A stretch of DNA of 64,000 nucleotides from Candidatus Moranbacteria bacterium GW2011_GWC2_40_12. Its GTDB lineage: Bacteria > Patescibacteriota > Minisyncoccia > Moranbacterales > UBA11712. The notes below the pieces were generated by a model, which worked only from the letters and a program-made list of their open reading frames with translations, was not told where the DNA came from and made no database searches. Numbering within the stretch: position 1 is the stretch's first letter; each line of letters begins with the position of its first letter. Shown here piece by piece: positions 8,002-19,828 of the stretch. A program made the position numbers and the translations under genes. The stretch spans positions 270,563 to 334,562 of the forward strand of contig LBYD01000002.1 of the NCBI GenBank assembly GCA_000995965.1. The letters are read 5' to 3'.

Positions 8002-8841
8002 ATGAAAAAAGAAGAGAGAATTGCCATTTTTGAAGGCAAAAAAATCCGCCGGCAGTGGGATGAAAAAGAAGAAAAATGGTATTTTTCGGTTGTTGATATT
8101 GTCCAATTGTTAATTCAGCAAGACAACTATCAAGTTGCCAGAAAATACTGGAATAAGCTCAAAGAAAGGCTTAATAAAGAGGGAAATGAGTCGGTGACAA
8201 ATTGTCACCAACTGAAATTTATGGCTAATGACGGCAAATATTACGCAACTGATGCAGCCGATACAGAGACTCTATTACGTCTTGTTCAATCGGTGCCTAG
8301 CCCCAAGGCCGAACCGATTAAGTTGTGGCTGGCGCGAGTGGGATATGAAAGGATAGAGGAAATAAACGACCCGGAAAAAGCCCTCAATCGTAGTCGCGCT
8401 TATTGGCAAAGAATGGGCCGGAGCCAGAAATGGATCCAGCAAAGAATGATGGGGCAGGGAATCAGGAACAAGCTGACGGATTATTGGAAAAATAATGAAG
8501 TCAAAGAGCGGGACGAATACGCTATTCTCACAAACATAATCCACGAGGAGTGGAGCGATTTATCAGTAAAGGAGCATAAAAATTTGAAAAAACTGGAAAG
8601 AGAAAATCTGCGCGACCATATGACAGACGCGGAATTGGTTTTTACAGCTCTTGCTGAACTCTCCACTCGCCAGATCGCCGAAACTATGGAAACCAAGGGC
8701 TTGGAAGAAAACAAAATCCCGGCCAAACGTGGCGGACAGGTTGCGAAAAACGCCAGACTTGAACTGGAACAAAAAACCGGAAAAAGAGTTGTGACAGATG
8801 AAAATTTGAAGTTACATTATATAAAAAAGATAAAATCTTGA
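8002..8841 (+). CDS. BRO-N domain protein (DinD / prophage antirepressor-like)
   Basis: 'IRRQWDEKEEKWYFSVVDIVQLL' matches Bro-N (KilA-N-like) domain; length ~279 aa as in DinD-like proteins. Confidence 0.6.
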   Translation: MKKEERIAIFEGKKIRRQWDEKEEKWYFSVVDIVQLLIQQDNYQVARKYWNKLKERLNKEGNESVTNCHQLKFMANDGKYYATDAADTETLLRLVQSVPSPKAEPIKLWLARVGYERIEEINDPEKALNRSRAYWQRMGRSQKWIQQRMMGQGIRNKLTDYWKNNEVKERDEYAILTNIIHEEWSDLSVKEHKNLKKLERENLRDHMTDAELVFTALAELSTRQIAETMETKGLEENKIPAKRGGQVAKNARLELEQKTGKRVVTDENLKLHYIKKIKS

Positions 8842-16545: not shown

Positions 16546-16701
16546 TCATCTCCGCGACGCGAGGGCGGCGAGAATGAGCCCGGCTACGTTCACCAGAACC
16601 AGAAGCCCCGCGACCACGAGAGTCGAGACGATGGAGAAGGCGCCATAGAGGCCGTATCTCCCGTGCCGATACTCAGCGGGAGAAATCCAACGCTTTTTCA
16701 T
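16546..16701 (-). CDS. Candidate 51-aa single-TM hydrophobic peptide (MKKRWISPAEYRHGRYGLYGAFSIVSTLVVAGLLVLVNVAGLILAALASRR), locally GC-rich
   Basis: Uninterrupted ATG..TGA ORF below the ORF-track cutoff; strongly hydrophobic C-terminal helix; GC ~60% versus AT-rich surroundings; no obvious SD. Confidence 0.3.
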   Translation of the reverse strand: MKKRWISPAEYRHGRYGLYGAFSIVSTLVVAGLLVLVNVAGLILAALASRR

Positions 16702-16887: not shown

Positions 16888-16913
16888 AATTGTATCATAA
16901 TAACACGGCCGTC
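16888..16913. repeat. 26-bp direct repeat copy 1 (caattgtatcataataacacggccgtc)
   Basis: Matches 17497-17524 with 2 mismatches; together they bracket the 16928-17485 gene. Confidence 0.6.
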
Positions 16914-16927
16914 TTATTATGATACAA

Positions 16928-17485
16928 CTATCTTCTAAAAAAATGCCTTTTGAGGGCGGGTTCGCTGTCGATGTTTGTCGCGGTGACAACCCTAACATAA
17001 GGCTGGGCCGAATAAAGTGAGACAAGCTCCTGGATGGGCTTTTCAAATGGATGCGGAGAAACAAAAACGCTGTGCTGGAGTTTCAAAAATTTGAGCGTCC
17101 GCAAATGCTCGCGCAGAATATCGCGAAACAGCCGATTTTTCTCCGGAATGTCGAAAAGAACGAGCCGCCATTTTCCATCCCAGCGCTTCGGCCTTTTGAA
17201 ATTTATGGAGCTTCCGATGAGACTCAATATTTTCGCTTCCCGTTTGCCTCTTGTCGTCAGAACCAGTCTGAAAGATCCGTCAGGGAGCCTTTTTTCTTTA
17301 AGGAGTTTTTCATCGGAGAGACGGTGCAAAGAGCGGTTGAAATTCCGTTGGTCAATTTTTCTCCATTCTGACCGCATGAGGCGTAGTGTCCGGTAGTATT
17401 GCCAGGGAGATCGAGAAAAGCCGAGGGCAACACTGCCCATAAGAGCTATGAGTATCTTTTTTTGCACAGGTCCGAATTTATACAT
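16928..17485 (-). CDS. wHTH-like N-terminus fused to Cas2-like domain (PaaX-like architecture); solo, no CRISPR/cas1 nearby
   Basis: 'WRLVLFDIPEKNRLFRDILREHLRTLKFLKLQHSVFVSP...YVRVVTAT' resembles Cas2 core (Y/FDI..D..R.R....L...G.R.Q.SVF.C ... vRvy); N-terminal ~95 aa basic/helical. Confidence 0.5.
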   Translation of the reverse strand: MYKFGPVQKKILIALMGSVALGFSRSPWQYYRTLRLMRSEWRKIDQRNFNRSLHRLSDEKLLKEKRLPDGSFRLVLTTRGKREAKILSLIGSSINFKRPKRWDGKWRLVLFDIPEKNRLFRDILREHLRTLKFLKLQHSVFVSPHPFEKPIQELVSLYSAQPYVRVVTATNIDSEPALKRHFFRR

Positions 17486-17496
17486 GGTCCAATTTC

Positions 17497-17524
17497 CATT
17501 GTATCATAATTATACGGCCGTGGA
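17497..17524. repeat. 26-bp direct repeat copy 2 (ccattgtatcataattatacggccgtgg); contains minus-strand CCGTATAAT -10-like box ~25 nt upstream of ATG 17485
   Basis: See copy 1; a third partial inverted copy AATTATACGGCCGTGG at 61927-61942. Confidence 0.6.
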
Positions 17525-17653
17525 AAGATGATGCGTTGCGGGGTTCTGTAGGGGGAGGATCCTGAATGTGGAGGCTCCTGAAGTTGGACTTTAGGAATGA
17601 TTATCCCGCAGTTTTAAAATCTCTTCAACTGATTGATTATTATTATAACTCAT

Positions 17654-17686
17654 TGAAAAACAAAGACCAGCCCACGGTGGGGCTGG
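17654..17686 (-). terminator. Rho-independent terminator for minus-strand operon (ccagccccaccgtgggctgg + T-run on minus strand)
   Basis: Perfect 8-bp stem hairpin followed by U-run in minus orientation, just 3' of gene ending 17693. Confidence 0.7.
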
Positions 17687-17692
17687 TGTGAG

Positions 17693-18079
17693 TCAGGCCT
17701 TTTTTATTGAGAATATCTCGAGCGTTATGCTCCCGTCAACATGGAAAGTCACTTTTGGCGCAAGTTCAAATTCAATGCTTGTTATGAATTCTTTTGCACT
17801 TTCCCAGGCTTTTTGCAGTCGCCCTCTTTTTTTTGGGTCGAGTTTGAGGTTAAAGAATAGGAAATGACCGTAAAGCTTTGTTTGAACGGGCATTCCATTT
17901 TGATATATTAATACCCCCAGAGTAACCCCTTGTTTTTGCCGAAGTTTTTCAGCAGAAATGGCCATGTCTAGGAAATCTTCCCATGCCTCTGCTTCCAGAT
18001 GCTTTAGCTCCTTTTTACTCAAAACCTCTTTCAGTTCTTTAATTGCCTTATCTGTCGTAAGAAATTGACCCTCGGCCAT
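17693..18079 (-). CDS. Hypothetical soluble protein (128 aa), third gene of XRE/ImmA operon
   Basis: No TM, no known motif; 58-nt gap after ImmA-like gene, same strand. Confidence 0.45.
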   Translation of the reverse strand: MAEGQFLTTDKAIKELKEVLSKKELKHLEAEAWEDFLDMAISAEKLRQKQGVTLGVLIYQNGMPVQTKLYGHFLFFNLKLDPKKRGRLQKAWESAKEFITSIEFELAPKVTFHVDGSITLEIFSIKKA

Positions 18080-18137
18080 GACGAATCCCTCCTTGTTTAG
18101 CTTTTTTTGCTTCCAAAAAGTTAAATCTTAATAATTC

Positions 18138-18659
18138 TCATTCATTGCCTAACTTTAACTCTTTTGCTCTATAATAAATTGCATCACCCGAAACGCCAAA
18201 GAATTTTGCCAACCTTGCCCTCTTCCATATATCTCCATCGGTTATAGAATTCCACTTATCGCGAAACAGTATCTTGGGCATCAAAAAAGCCGCCGCGAAT
18301 CTTTCACAGAATCTTTCTTCGCCCCAGGCAGAATAAATATCCCCAGTTGAGAAACCATACTTTAATCCCGAGTTTCTGATTATATGCGCAATTTCATGAC
18401 ATAAGGTGAATCTTTGCCTATATTCCGGTTCCTTGGAATTTATCCAGATTTGGAAAATATTTCTCGCAGGATCGAAATACTCAAGTCCCGATGGTTTGAA
18501 TTCTTTTGAATCGGTATGAGAAATTTTCACTCTTATTCCAAGATTCTCTTCTGTCCATTTAATCAAGGAAAATTCTGAAGGCATTTCCTCTTTTATGCCG
18601 TCGTAAATCGCTTTGGCAATATCTTCTGCATTTAGATTTATTCCTTCATATGATTTCAT
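18138..18659 (-). CDS. ImmA/IrrE-family metallopeptidase (DUF955/COG2856-like), HEXXH 'HEIAH'
   Basis: 'FTLCHEIAHIIRN' zinc-metallopeptidase motif; overlaps upstream XRE gene by 4 nt (ATGA). Confidence 0.7.
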   Translation of the reverse strand: MKSYEGINLNAEDIAKAIYDGIKEEMPSEFSLIKWTEENLGIRVKISHTDSKEFKPSGLEYFDPARNIFQIWINSKEPEYRQRFTLCHEIAHIIRNSGLKYGFSTGDIYSAWGEERFCERFAAAFLMPKILFRDKWNSITDGDIWKRARLAKFFGVSGDAIYYRAKELKLGNE

Positions 18660-18985
18660 ACTCGCTTTCCGAAATTATCGATTAAATCTTCAATTAACTT
18701 CACATCAATCTCATTTTTAATTTTGTATTTTTTCCGCAAATACATTCTTAGAGGAGATGGCTCATTCTGCTCAATGACATTAAGATTATCAAGTATCTCT
18801 TTGACTTTAATACCTAATCCTTGAGCAAGTTTTATGATTGAATGCAGGGAAATATTTTTTTTGTCAAAATCTCCTTTCTCAATACGCGAAATGAAGGCCT
18901 TTGATAAGCTTGATCTTTCGGACAGTTCGTCGATCGTAAGAGATTTGTTATCCCTATATTTTTTAACAATATTACTTAGTTGCAT
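18656..18985 (-). CDS. XRE-family helix-turn-helix transcriptional regulator
   Basis: 'KSLTIDELSERSSLSKAFISRIEKGD' canonical Cro/C1 HTH; 109 aa. Confidence 0.75.
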   Translation of the reverse strand: MQLSNIVKKYRDNKSLTIDELSERSSLSKAFISRIEKGDFDKKNISLHSIIKLAQGLGIKVKEILDNLNVIEQNEPSPLRMYLRKKYKIKNEIDVKLIEDLIDNFGKRV

Positions 18986-18997
18986 AGAGTATAATTA

Positions 18998-19025
18998 AGT
19001 TTATCACAGTGAATATTTCTGTCAA
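18998..19025 (-). promoter_or_regulatory. Minus-strand promoter TTGACA-16-TAAACT with embedded palindrome TCACTGTGA (candidate XRE operator)
   Basis: Read on minus strand: TTGACAgaaatattCACTGTGAtaaact...ATG; perfect 9-bp palindrome in spacer. Confidence 0.45.
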
Positions 19026-19281
19026 CTCCCTATAAAAAAATCGCCGGTTCCCTGACGAAAATTATTAGTTATCTACTTTTTATAGCAACATCAGATTATT
19101 AAATTTACCACCGCCTCCGCGATGTGTTCGTTCCAATCGTGACGGCGATTGTCTTTTTGCCAACTTTGGTCAATTTTCTCACTTCTCTTTCTTCTTTTTT
19201 GCTTCTTGCCATTTTTTTTTAATTACTTACCTAGTTACGTAATTATGCAAATATCCTATCTCAAAATCCCACATTTGCCAA

Positions 19282-19320
19282 GAAAAAAACCTTGCCGACT
19301 ACACGCACAAGGTTTTTCTT
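19282..19320. terminator. Bidirectional terminator (aaaaaaaccttgccgactacacgcacaaggtttttctt)
   Basis: Hairpin ccttg...caagg flanked by A-run and T-run. Confidence 0.6.
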
Positions 19321-19339: not shown

Positions 19340-19828
19340 TTATCCTCTCCCAATCCCATACTTTGCGATGTTCAAAGCGTGCCATCTCCACGCTTTTCGC
19401 GTAATTTCGTAAGTGTCAGCTGATTGATTTGCGGGACTGCGTTTGCGTCCTTTTTTGCAGATAGGTTTCTCCTCCACAAGCCCCAGGCCTTTCATGACCT
19501 TCAGGTGTGGGATCGTTTCAGCTTTCAGGTGAAGCCTGAACTTTCCTCCCTCGCGGGAAAATCCTTCTTTGTCCGCAAAGACAGCAGCTAGTTTGTTTAG
19601 TATGTCTTCAAGAACATTAATGGGAATGATGTTTTGAGTTTCCCACGCTATTTCATTTGGAATCATATAAGCTTCCTCCGTTTCCCGTAGAATATTTCCA
19701 GCTCGTTTGAGCGGGTAAGGAACATTTTTTCTTGTCCCCATCCTATCCCAAAATGGCTGATTTATCAAGAAACTGGAAAGTTTTGACTGAATATGGTAAA
19801 ATAGGATAGTCTTAATTGCGCAAAACAC
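19340..19828 (-). CDS. Hypothetical protein; likely true start at internal Met (19738, MGTRKN) since 19828 abuts divergent ftsK start
   Basis: ORF with no recognisable motif; divergent to ftsK. Confidence 0.35.
   Translation of the reverse strand: MFCAIKTILFYHIQSKLSSFLINQPFWDRMGTRKNVPYPLKRAGNILRETEEAYMIPNEIAWETQNIIPINVLEDILNKLAAVFADKEGFSREGGKFRLHLKAETIPHLKVMKGLGLVEEKPICKKGRKRSPANQSADTYEITRKAWRWHALNIAKYGIGRG

What the first reader, a model, noticed from the sequence alone, without database searches (positions are those of the whole stretch)
17693..19030. XRE-HTH / ImmA(IrrE) metallopeptidase / unknown 128-aa protein operon: candidate regulated defence or TA-like module
Three co-directional minus-strand genes: an XRE HTH (18656-18985), a DUF955/ImmA-type HEIAH metallopeptidase (18138-18659) overlapping it by 4 nt, and an unassigned soluble protein (17693-18079). 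A TTGACA promoter with an embedded perfect TCACTGTGA palindrome lies upstream and a clean terminator downstream. HTH + ImmA-like peptidase pairs are known as ImmR/ImmA regulators of mobile elements, as CapH/CapP-type regulators of anti-phage operons, and as Xre/COG2856 toxin-antitoxin pairs. Here the pair sits in a non-core island between rpoC and ftsK with an uncharacterised third gene as possible cargo/effector. No integrase, phage or known defence effector is adjacent.
Basis: partly seen in the sequence, partly recalled or inferred. Interest (0 to 1): 0.72.

Follow-up and report, generated by a model that had tools for sequence, protein, structure and literature searches.

The report
Repressor–protease switch with orphan cargo gene
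A groundwater Moranbacteria (CPR) genome carries a small repressor-plus-protease switch of a known type (ImmR/ImmA, CapH/CapP) that in related genomes sits in front of changing anti-phage genes, but here it precedes a one-of-a-kind 128-residue protein whose first 46 residues were copied from a sulfate-reducer's APS reductase gene.

Summary
Three co-directional minus-strand genes sit at the stated coordinates: an XRE HTH, an M78 HEIAH peptidase overlapping it by 4 nt, and a 128-aa ORF, with a TTGACA promoter upstream and a strong terminator downstream.

The conserved unit is only promoter + HTH + M78 (about 18150–19040). About 40 relatives (46–82% identity) occur in Patescibacteria. In at least five lineages the pair lies beside rpoC and/or ftsK, so it is an old resident of a variable gap rather than a recent island.

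The gene after the pair differs in every genome: a CBASS cyclase, PADLOC candidates PDC-S54 and PDC-M36A, an NYN RNase, Cas4-like nucleases, a radical-SAM enzyme, and decayed genes. The peptidase is ImmA-sized, with no GAF domain and no cysteine switch. The cargo is co-directional, unlike canonical CapH/CapP.

Most likely the pair is an autorepressed switch that releases the downstream cargo after repressor cleavage.

The window's cargo is a true orphan. Residues 5–46 derive from AprA (78% identity; public records misname it APS reductase) and residues 47–128 match nothing among 1.84 billion proteins. Its function is untested.

I found no phage, integrase or regulon link. This is a new variant of a known kind, of moderate interest.

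The parts
18998..19025 (-). Sigma-70-type promoter: -35 TTGACA (19020-19025), 16-nt spacer, TG-extended -10 TAAACT (18998-19003). The ATG of the HTH gene follows about 13 nt after the -10 box, so the mRNA is leaderless or has a very short leader with no SD.
   Evidence: Promoter scan, (10/12 match with TG). The same layout is seen in 8 orthologous loci.
19000..19013 (-). Candidate operator: the dyad TTCAC-TGTG-ATAAA overlapping the -10 box. The family consensus is TTyAC-N4-GTAAA.
   Evidence: Alignment A3 of 8 promoters. L012 carries a perfect 16-bp palindrome TTTTACTATAGTAAAA. The motif occurs only once in the 64-kb window. That the HTH protein binds it is inferred.
18656..18985 (-). XRE-family HTH repressor, 109 aa. 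The HTH domain spans about residues 1-67, followed by a C-terminal helical region with an invariant Y82-L83-R84-x-K86-Y87 motif, which is the candidate cleavage site.
   Evidence: Pfam HTH_3 1.2e-10. PADLOC capH 4.9e-10 over residues 7-107, and R-M Control_protein 3.7e-10. Alignment A2 gives the invariant columns.
18138..18659 (-). ImmA/IrrE-type M78 zinc metallopeptidase, 173 aa. It has a peptidase domain and a C-terminal helical bundle, with no GAF domain. The start codon overlaps the HTH stop by 4 nt.
   Evidence: Pfam Peptidase_M78 7e-19. PADLOC capP 5.3e-18 covering only profile positions 6-153 of 242. H88/E89/H92/E115 are invariant. AF2 model pLDDT 84.5. Foldseek finds IrrE/PprI with TM 0.65-0.67 normalised by query and 0.48-0.50 by target.
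18080..18137 (-). 58-nt spacer without a terminator. It contains the Shine-Dalgarno AAGGAGG (18088-18094), 8 nt before the third gene's ATG.
   Evidence: Sequence. RNA fold of the spacer shows no hairpin plus T-run.
17693..18079 (-). Third gene ('cargo slot'): a 128-aa soluble orphan protein. Public records misannotate it as 'Adenylylsulfate reductase, alpha subunit'.
   Evidence: It is identical on 51 contigs of one species and has no full-length homologue among 5.8 billion clusters or 1.84 billion representatives. The codon-usage score favours this frame (0.164 against -0.39 to -0.63 for the other frames). There is no Pfam, PADLOC or PHROG family. The AF2 single-sequence model has pLDDT 48.5 and is not usable.
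17942..18079 (-). aprA-derived 5' segment of the third gene (codons 1-46). It corresponds to AprA capping-domain residues about 339-387 (A. fulgidus 333-372) and includes the WEDFLDM motif with the Asp-A361 equivalent.
   Evidence: PDB 3gyx_A and 1jnr_A matches. P0046 (654-aa AprA) is 78% identical over residues 7-46. tblastn gives a single hit at 18079-17942 and no out-of-frame remnants. pS 0.93 against pN 0.14 relative to a donor-like aprA. AprA residue roles are from PMC2211403.
17656..17687 (-). Intrinsic terminator ACCAGCCC-CACCGT-GGGCTGGT followed by CTTTGTTTTT. It ends the three-gene unit.
   Evidence: Terminator scan. Fold energy -20.2 kcal/mol for the region.

Best explanation
The locus is a single autoregulated three-gene transcription unit.

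Proposed mechanism:
1. The 109-aa XRE protein, as a dimer or oligomer, binds the dyad overlapping the -10 box of its own promoter. This keeps transcription of itself, the peptidase and the downstream gene low.
2. The 173-aa ImmA-like M78 peptidase, when activated by a stress or infection cue, cleaves the repressor in its C-terminal oligomerisation region, probably at the invariant YLR-x-KY motif.
3. The repressor falls off and the whole operon, including the downstream 'cargo' gene, is expressed.

Across Patescibacteria this two-gene switch is the constant part and the cargo position is exchangeable. It is often filled by defence or toxin-type genes. In this genome the cargo is a lineage-specific 128-aa chimeric orphan whose head was captured from a sulfate-reducer aprA gene. 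Its activity is unknown, and it may be a small effector or a recently assembled gene of little function.

Shown: gene identities, intact catalytic motif, fold, promoter/terminator layout, a conserved dyad, module boundaries, cargo variability, and the orphan and chimeric nature of the third gene.

Inferred: repression, cleavage and its site, the trigger, co-transcription, and any role of the cargo.
For: - Domain identities.
- Catalytic residues invariant in 25 relatives.
- High-confidence model superposing on the IrrE/PprI peptidase plus helical region.
- Full-length capH-profile match of the HTH protein and an invariant YLRxKY in its C-terminal part. This lies at the same relative position as the CapH F82|R83 cleavage site. 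ImmR is cleaved at F95|M96.
- Promoter with a conserved dyad over the -10 box in 8 orthologues.
- DNA homology to the nearest relatives covers exactly the promoter through the end of M78 (18150-19025 and 18160-19043).
- The next gene is co-directional within 4-99 nt, with no terminator, in every HTH-containing locus (L165: a 44-aa ORF).
- Cargo identities: CD-NTase 4.5e-142 plus a downstream 178-aa protein with hydrophobic stretches read by eye (L011); PDC-S54 5e-82 (L007); PDC-M36A 3.5e-28 (L008); NYN 1.9e-16 (L173); Cas4-like nucleases (L012, L165).
- In the window there is a strong SD before the third gene and a strong terminator after it. The third ORF has codon usage typical of coding sequence.
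- The mechanistic precedent is experimentally established for CapH/CapP, ImmR/ImmA and DdrO/IrrE (cited).
Against: - There is no expression, binding or cleavage data for this system.
- The peptidase lacks the GAF domain and the cysteine switch that mediate ssDNA sensing in CapP and IrrE, so the trigger is unknown.
- Canonical capH/capP are divergent from their cargo, whereas here the cargo is downstream in the same operon. Basal read-through would therefore always express some cargo.
- Several cargo-slot genes in relatives are not defence genes or are decayed: split inositol-monophosphatase in L006, split NYN in L174, radical SAM in L166.
- The PDC systems are only candidates.
- The window's cargo has no homologues, no confident fold and no population variation to test selection. 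It may be a non-functional chimera.
- Three relatives have M78 without an adjacent HTH.
Confidence: 0.55

Rival explanations
1. The HTH-M78 pair is a self-contained two-gene unit (a local regulator, or an Xre/COG2856 toxin-antitoxin-like pair). The third ORF is an unrelated or non-functional neighbour: a chimeric leftover created when foreign DNA, including an aprA fragment, landed in a recombination-prone gap.
For: - The conserved DNA block ends at the M78 stop.
- The third protein is a species-restricted orphan with a captured gene fragment.
- The neighbouring slots in relatives hold split or decayed genes (L006 IMPase, L174 NYN, frameshifted M78 in L173).
- PADLOC lists an HTH+M78 two-gene candidate (PDC-M69A/B) that weakly matches both proteins.
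- Makarova et al. classed Xre-COG2856 as a TA-like pair.
Against: - There is a strong SD, no terminator between M78 and the ORF, a strong terminator right after it, and in-frame codon bias.
- The AprA-derived peptide keeps 19 of 19 core residues although synonymous sites are saturated and GC3 has dropped from 0.84 to 0.39, which suggests constraint.
- Co-directional tight linkage to cargo is seen in 8 of 8 HTH-containing loci.
- For the TA version: intact solo M78 genes exist, and pneumococcal COG2856 proteins were not toxic.
Confidence: 0.3
2. The pair is the immunity module (ImmR/ImmA) of a decayed prophage or integrative element whose other genes have been lost.
For: - The sizes and gene order (HTH first, overlapping minimal peptidase, third gene in the same operon) match immR-immA-int of ICEBs1.
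- There are superfamily-level PHROG matches to phage repressors and metalloproteases.
- The pair has lower GC (0.32-0.38) than its flanks.
Against: - There is no integrase, excisionase or phage structural gene within +/-10 kb in the window. No tRNA gene lies between rpoC and ftsK, and no direct repeats flank the module.
- No close relative occurs among 2.9 million viral contigs (best 34%, core only). Only one weak hit occurs among 50,697 phage genomes.
- The pair has the same chromosomal neighbours (rpoC and/or ftsK) in at least five lineages at 53-82% identity, which indicates long vertical residence.
Confidence: 0.08
3. The pair is a housekeeping DdrO/IrrE-like master regulator of a DNA-damage regulon in Moranbacteria. 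Its position near recA, ssb and ftsK reflects that role.
For: - The pair is syntenically conserved next to ftsK and rpoC in several lineages, with recA about 4 kb away.
- IrrE is the closest solved structure.
Against: - The operator motif occurs only at the pair's own promoter in 64 kb. A permissive search gives 7 hits against 7.06 expected, with no exact match apart from the pair's own promoter.
- Other copies of the family sit beside R-M and defence genes at unrelated loci.
- A LexA-like S24 protein is present in the same gap in one lineage.
- The GAF and three-domain architecture of IrrE is absent.
Confidence: 0.07

Closest known systems
ImmR/ImmA (ICEBs1, phage phi105-type) repressor / anti-repressor peptidase
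   Same: Both have an XRE repressor of about 110-127 aa followed by an overlapping minimal M78 peptidase of about 170 aa without a sensor domain. In both, a third gene is co-transcribed from the autoregulated promoter (immR-immA-int). The expected cleavage is in the repressor's C-terminal helical region (ImmR F95|M96; PMC8960796).
   Different: The window's module is not inside a mobile element. The third gene is not an integrase. The pair is chromosomal and syntenic across Moranbacteria. No close relatives occur in phage or viral collections.
CapH/CapP regulators of CBASS and other immune operons (Lau et al. 2022; Calloji et al. 2026)
   Same: These are the best PADLOC matches for both proteins (capH 4.9e-10 full length; capP 5.3e-18). 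The repressor is the same length, with a conserved motif where CapH is cleaved (F82|R83). Family members sit next to CBASS and other known or candidate defence genes.
   Different: CapP is 288 aa with peptidase, HTH and GAF domains and often a cysteine-switch loop, and ssDNA binds between the peptidase and GAF domains. The protein here is 173 aa, has no GAF domain and has no Cys in the equivalent loop. Canonical capH/capP lie upstream of and on the opposite strand to the cargo. Here the cargo is downstream in the same operon.
DdrO/IrrE (PprI) radiation-response switch of Deinococcus
   Same: It has the closest solved structure to the peptidase (3dte/3dti, 8sln) and uses the same logic of a peptidase cleaving an XRE repressor.
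   Different: IrrE has three domains (peptidase, HTH, GAF), is encoded apart from ddrO, and controls a regulon. No regulon signal was found here.
Three-component Xre + COG2856 + toxin modules predicted by Makarova et al. 2009; Rosmer (RmrT/RmrA)
   Same: All share the concept of an Xre repressor and a COG2856 protease controlling an adjacent toxin or effector. There are partial PADLOC RmrA matches to the M78 part.
   Different: In those systems the HTH and peptidase are usually fused (RmrA is about 380 aa) and the partner is a recognisable toxin such as RelE or PIN. Here the two proteins are separate and the partner is an orphan.
AprA (dissimilatory adenylylsulfate reductase alpha subunit), the public annotation of the third gene
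   Same: Residues 5-46 are 69-78% identical to AprA capping-domain residues about 339-387, including WEDFLDM.
   Different: AprA is an FAD flavoprotein of about 650 aa. Only a two-helix piece is present here, there is no FAD-binding or helical domain, and the remaining 82 residues are unrelated. The annotation is wrong.

Membership tests
Peptidase_M78 / ImmA-IrrE (COG2856) superfamily | Pfam PF06114 match above gathering score, with an HExxH motif and a downstream Glu zinc ligand | tested here: met
   68.3 bits against a cut-off of 22. H88, E89, H92 and E115 are invariant in 25 relatives.
Peptidase_M78 / ImmA-IrrE (COG2856) superfamily | Fold of the IrrE-type peptidase domain | tested here: met
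   AF2 model pLDDT 84.5. Foldseek top hits are IrrE and PprI at E 7.6e-7 to 1.4e-5 with TM (by query) 0.65-0.67.
XRE/Cro-C1 HTH repressors | HTH_3 domain | tested here: met
   41.6 bits against a cut-off of 23.
ImmR/ImmA modules of mobile elements | Adjacent, co-transcribed XRE repressor and minimal (about 170 aa) M78 peptidase | tested here: met
   109 aa and 173 aa, 4-nt overlap, one promoter.
ImmR/ImmA modules of mobile elements | Located in a prophage or ICE with integrase and excision functions under its control | tested here: not met
   No integrase or phage genes within +/-10 kb. No close relatives in viral contigs or phage genomes. The position is syntenic and chromosomal in five lineages.
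ImmR/ImmA modules of mobile elements | Peptidase cleaves the repressor | not testable with these tools
   This needs biochemistry. Only a conserved candidate site (YLRxKY) is seen.
CapH/CapP | CapH: N-terminal HTH plus a C-terminal two-helix oligomerisation domain, about 107 aa | tested here: inconclusive
   The PADLOC capH profile matches residues 7-107 (profile positions 11-100 of 103) at 4.9e-10. The C-terminal part was not modelled, and oligomerisation was not tested.
CapH/CapP | CapP: peptidase + HTH + C-terminal GAF domain forming the ssDNA groove | tested here: not met
   The protein is 173 aa. The capP profile is matched only over positions 6-153 of 242. TM-score normalised by the IrrE target is 0.48-0.50 because the extra domain is not covered.
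CapH/CapP | Cysteine-switch loop between HExxH and the third ligand (present in many but not all CapP) | tested here: not met
   The loop 93-114 has no Cys in any of 25 relatives. The loop is predicted to be disordered.
CapH/CapP | Genes lie upstream of, and on the opposite strand to, the regulated immune operon | tested here: not met
   The cargo is co-directional and downstream in the window and in all 8 HTH-containing loci.
CapH/CapP | Association with anti-phage systems | tested here: inconclusive
   At family level this holds: CBASS (L011), PDC-S54, PDC-M36A, NYN and nucleases. In the window the cargo is an orphan with no defence-family match.
CapH/CapP | Activation by single-stranded DNA / DNA damage | not testable with these tools
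   Requires cleavage assays with and without ssDNA.
DdrO/IrrE | Repressor controls a multi-promoter damage regulon through a shared operator | tested here: not met
   The operator motif is found only at the pair's own promoter. The permissive search gives chance level. Only 64 kb of the genome was available.
Type II toxin-antitoxin Xre/COG2856 | M78 protein is toxic and is neutralised by the cognate HTH antitoxin | not testable with these tools
   Indirect evidence is against it: intact solo M78 genes in L009, L167 and L168, and pneumococcal COG2856 proteins were non-toxic.
AprA (adenylylsulfate reductase alpha), the public name of the third gene | Flavoprotein of about 640-660 aa with FAD-binding, capping and helical domains, encoded with aprB | tested here: not met
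   Only residues 5-46 match AprA. NCBIfam aprA scores 22.9 bits against a cut-off of 641.75. There are no other aprA pieces in the window.

The most novel reading that the evidence does not exclude
The 128-aa orphan is a working, inducible small effector built around a domesticated piece of a sulfate reducer's APS reductase. The same AprA two-helix segment also ends a membrane/coiled-coil protein (P0003) wedged between an Mrr restriction gene and an ORF that, by eye, starts like a type I methylase, in an unrelated bacterium. It could therefore be a recurring, so far unrecognised module of defence-island proteins. Alternatively it could be a footprint of gene flow from a sulfate-reducing host into its Moranbacteria episymbiont. 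In parallel, the GAF-less, co-directional HTH-M78 'cargo slot' anchored beside ftsK and rpoC would be a CPR-specific way of wiring exchangeable defence genes to one stress switch.
Probability: 0.12. Interest if true: 0.65.

Novelty: new variant of a known kind. Interest (0 to 1): 0.38.

Why it matters
Repressor/peptidase switches are an established way of tying mobile-element induction (ImmR/ImmA), DNA-repair genes (DdrO/IrrE) and immune operons (CapH/CapP) to cellular stress.

This locus and its roughly 40 relatives suggest that ultra-small CPR bacteria use a stripped-down version. It has no GAF sensor, the cargo sits in the same operon, and it is parked at a conserved chromosomal position while the cargo is swapped. 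If confirmed, this would:
- give a handle for finding new defence or toxin genes in CPR genomes, where most genes are unannotated;
- raise the question of how a sensor-less peptidase is triggered.

The third gene also corrects a public misannotation: a 128-aa protein named APS reductase could mislead sulfur-cycle surveys. It is a clean example of a chimeric orphan built from a captured gene fragment.

Tried and rejected
- **Homologues of the third protein.** The word-indexed search of 5.8 billion clusters and the exhaustive HMMER search of 1.84 billion representatives found only AprA matches to residues 5-46. Pfam, NCBIfam, PADLOC and PHROGs gave no family apart from the sub-threshold aprA hit. 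Phage genomes gave none.
- **Structure of the third protein.** The single-sequence AF2 model has pLDDT 48.5, so I did not run a fold search on it.
- **Out-of-frame aprA.** I tested whether the rest of the ORF or its flanks are out-of-frame aprA. They are not.
- **Population-level selection test.** This was impossible because all contigs of the species are clonal.
- **Prophage or ICE origin.** Rejected.
- **Regulon.** Rejected within 64 kb.
- **Known RNA families in the island.** None reach threshold. One sub-threshold hit falls on a terminator hairpin.
- **AprA motif in viral contigs.** None found.
- **Genome-contig scan with the M78 alignment.** Generic M78 proteins dominated the result and it added only two subfamily loci. 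The metagenome scan with the HTH alignment returned just nine loci.
- **Cassette-junction repeat.** I checked whether the GC-rich repeat at cargo boundaries in relatives occurs in the window's module. It does not.
- **Sulfur-nucleotide link.** I considered a functional link between AprA (APS) and the split IMPase/CysQ-like cargo of the sister genome. I have no evidence beyond the coincidence.
Full report
**1. Observation**

- 18656-18985, 109 aa.
- 18138-18659, 173 aa, whose start overlaps the previous stop by 4 nt.
- 17693-18079, 128 aa.

Pfam assigns HTH_3 (1.2e-10) to the first and Peptidase_M78 (7e-19) to the second, and nothing to the third. The consensus scan finds TTGACA-16-TAAACT with a TG extension at 19025..18998. 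It also finds a strong hairpin with a T-run at 17687..17666. TCACTGTGA is present at 19004-19012. The gene tables of identical contigs show no integrase or phage gene within 10 kb. The flanks are rpoB/rpoC on one side and ftsK, a RodZ-like gene and recA on the other. The organism is a Candidatus Moranbacteria (CPR/Patescibacteria) population from groundwater.

**2. The conserved unit is two genes plus a promoter**

The peptidase has about 40 relatives of 46-82% identity. All are about 170-178 aa, and where named they come from Moranbacteria, Parcubacteria or Patescibacteria. H88, E89, H92 and E115 are invariant.

DNA comparison with the two closest loci shows homology only over 18150-19025 (L006) and 18160-19043 (L007). 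That span runs from the -35 box to the end of the peptidase gene, and homology stops before the third gene.

A 108-123-aa HTH partner precedes the peptidase in the window, L006, L007, L008, L165, L166, L011 and L012. In L009, L167 and L168 an intact peptidase gene stands alone.

All eight HTH promoters share a TTGACA -35 box and a dyad TTyAC-N4-GTAAA laid over the -10 box. L012 has a perfect 16-bp palindrome. In all eight the ATG follows about 13-17 nt after the -10 box, so the mRNA has little or no leader.

**3. An old resident of a variable gap**

The pair, or the peptidase alone, lies beside rpoC and/or ftsK in these lineages:
- the window;
- L006 (82% identity);
- L166/L172 (59%);
- L168 (53%);
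- L173/L174, next to ftsK.

The genes around it differ in every case. Other copies lie at unrelated loci directly downstream of restriction-modification genes (L008, L009, L165). The 'island' is therefore better described as a hot spot whose constant element is the switch.

**4. The position after the peptidase is a cargo slot**

In all eight HTH-containing loci the next gene is co-directional, 4-99 nt away, with no hairpin plus T-run terminator in between. What occupies the slot:

| Locus | Gene(s) after the pair | Evidence |
|---|---|---|
| L011 | CD-NTase (PADLOC cyclase 4.5e-142; Pfam DncV-like/SMODS/AGS_C), then a 178-aa protein with hydrophobic stretches (by eye): a minimal CBASS | |
| L007 | PDC-S54, 5e-82 | |
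| L008 | PDC-M36A, 3.5e-28 | |
| L173 | NYN RNase, 1.9e-16 | |
| L012 | 159-aa unknown, then a Cas4-like PD-(D/E)XK nuclease | |
| L165 | 44-aa and 112-aa unknowns, then a 500-aa PD-(D/E)XK/RNase_H_2 protein | |
| L166 | radical SAM/SPASM enzyme | |
| L006 | split inositol-monophosphatase | |

This is the pattern described for CapH/CapP, one regulator pair with many immune cargos. It was also anticipated by the three-component Xre-COG2856-toxin idea of Makarova et al..

**5. Which known system it resembles, and where it fails membership**

PADLOC's best matches are capH, over the full length of the HTH protein, and capP. Three CapH/CapP features are not met:
- CapP is 288 aa with peptidase, HTH and GAF domains, and ssDNA binds between the peptidase and GAF domains. 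The window's peptidase is 173 aa.
- CapP usually has a cysteine-switch loop. In the window's peptidase the equivalent loop (99-114) is disordered and has no Cys.
- Canonical capH/capP are divergent from their cargo. Here the cargo is in the same operon.

The confident model of the peptidase (pLDDT 84.5) superposes on the peptidase plus helical part of IrrE/PprI. The TM-score is 0.65-0.67 normalised by the query and 0.48-0.50 by the target.

Architecturally the pair is closest to ImmR/ImmA. ImmR is a 127-aa repressor, ImmA is a minimal peptidase, and int is co-transcribed with them. However, there is no mobile element here. No close relative occurs among 2.9 million viral contigs, and only one weak core match occurs among 50,697 phage genomes.

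A DdrO/IrrE-like regulon is not supported. The dyad occurs once in 64 kb, and a permissive search gives 7 hits against 7.06 expected.

A toxin-antitoxin reading is weakened by the solo peptidase genes. It is also weakened by published non-toxicity of COG2856 proteins.

The HTH family has an invariant Y82-L83-R84-x-K86-Y87. This is where CapH is cut (F82|R83), so I propose it as the cleavage site. That is an inference.

**6. The third gene**

It is preceded by AAGGAGG 8 nt before its ATG and followed at once by the strongest terminator in the region. Its frame has a codon-usage score of 0.164, against -0.39 to -0.63 for the other five frames. That is similar to the HTH gene and better than the peptidase gene. 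It is therefore probably transcribed with the pair and translated.

It is nevertheless an orphan. It is identical on 51 contigs of this one clonal population and has no full-length relative anywhere.

Residues 5-46 are 69-78% identical to the capping-domain segment of AprA (residues about 339-387). The closest complete AprA belongs to a cluster named from Deltaproteobacteria MAGs. The ORF's start Met aligns with an internal AprA Met. This explains the public name 'Adenylylsulfate reductase, alpha subunit', which is wrong: NCBIfam aprA scores 22.9 bits against a cut-off of 641.75. The segment contains WEDFLDM with the equivalent of Asp-A361, which lines the APS pocket in AprA. A two-helix piece cannot form that site.

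Residues 47-128 match nothing in 1.84 billion representatives. They are not out-of-frame aprA.

Against a donor-like aprA (GC3 0.84), the captured segment (GC3 0.39) has saturated synonymous differences (pS 0.93) but pN of only 0.14, and 19 consecutive identical residues. This is consistent with constraint on the peptide. It is not proof, because the true donor is unknown.

The only other non-AprA protein with this segment is P0003, a protein that by eye has a hydrophobic N-terminus and a coiled coil, ending in the AprA-like tail. It lies between an Mrr restriction gene and what by eye looks like the start of an hsdM methylase, in a 51% GC organism. No viral contig carries the motif. I cannot tell whether this recurrence is meaningful.

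**7. Verdict**

- It is a two-gene conserved switch of ImmA-like architecture.
- It is an old resident beside rpoC and ftsK.
- The cargo slot is exchangeable and co-directional.
- Here it is filled by a chimeric orphan of unknown function.

It is a new variant of a well-known kind of system. The mechanism is inferred from experimentally studied relatives, and none of it was tested here.

Noticed in passing
window 17693-18079 (-): Public records name this 128-aa protein 'Adenylylsulfate reductase, alpha subunit'. Only a 46-residue segment is AprA-like, so the name is a misannotation that could mislead sulfur-cycle gene surveys of CPR genomes.
   Followed up: yes
L169 942-1469 (protein P0003): This is the second non-AprA protein carrying the same AprA segment. 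It is 175 aa and by eye has a hydrophobic N-terminus, a coiled coil and a C-terminal AprA-like tail. It is encoded between an Mrr_cat restriction gene and an ORF that by eye starts like hsdM, on a 2.1-kb contig of 51% GC. It shares 74% DNA identity with the window over 89 nt.
   Followed up: partly
L007 7906, 8335, 9202, 10108; L006 4851, 5864; L166 6566: A GC-rich intergenic repeat, CCGCGGATTTCGGCGGGG(G)AAAAT, follows each of four consecutive genes downstream of the HTH-M78 pair in L007. It also sits at cargo boundaries in L006 and L166. It could be a REP-like element or a cassette-junction signature. It is absent from the window's module.
   Followed up: partly
window 16890-16927 and 17493-17532: The PaaX_M (Cas2-like domain) gene 16928-17485(-) is flanked by palindromes sharing TTGTATCATAAT. 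One is a 19-nt-arm, 95% perfect palindrome right after its stop, and the other overlaps its promoter. This may be the binding site of that regulator.
   Followed up: no
window 16546-16701 (-) vs L006 3622-3888: A conserved 51-aa ORF with a hydrophobic C-terminal half (by eye) lies downstream of the module in the window but immediately upstream of the HTH gene in the sister genome. This indicates a local rearrangement within the rpoC-ftsK gap.
   Followed up: no
window 19105-19212 (-): A 35-aa ORF (MARSKKEEREVRKLTKVGKKTIAVTIGTNTSRRRW) lies between the upstream 133-aa gene and the HTH promoter. By eye it resembles the N-terminus of AbrB/MazE-type antitoxins and may be a truncated remnant. It has no Pfam match.
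   Followed up: partly
L006 4880-5675; L174 5932-6445; L173 4293-4745: Genes in or next to the cargo slot are often broken in relatives: the inositol-monophosphatase is split in two (L006), the NYN RNase is split (L174) and the M78 gene is frameshifted to 150 aa (L173). These are either real decay or MAG errors.
   Followed up: no
L009 6001-6519; L167 6001-6510; L168 6001-6525: Three lineages have an intact-looking M78 peptidase gene (HExxH retained) with no adjacent HTH gene. In L168 it sits directly after rpoC, with a LexA-like Peptidase_S24 gene nearby.
   Followed up: partly
window 8002-8841 (+): A 279-aa protein with a weak Bro-N domain hit lies just upstream of rpoB. Bro-N proteins are often phage- or antirepressor-associated. 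It is about 10 kb from the module.
   Followed up: no
window 19283-19317 (-): A strong terminator hairpin (AAAAACCTTG...CAAGGTTTTT, then a T-run) ends the upstream 133-aa orphan gene 19340-19741(-) and isolates it from the HTH promoter. The only Rfam hit in the island (DUF805b, 19.7 bits against a gathering score of 35.6) overlaps this hairpin and is probably chance.
   Followed up: no
L179 531-4945: The donor-like aprA locus (sat, aprB, aprA) on a 425-kb contig of about 60% GC has aprA called as several fragments (91, 48, 67, 215, 202, 104 aa). This suggests frameshifts or long-read assembly errors in that record.
   Followed up: no
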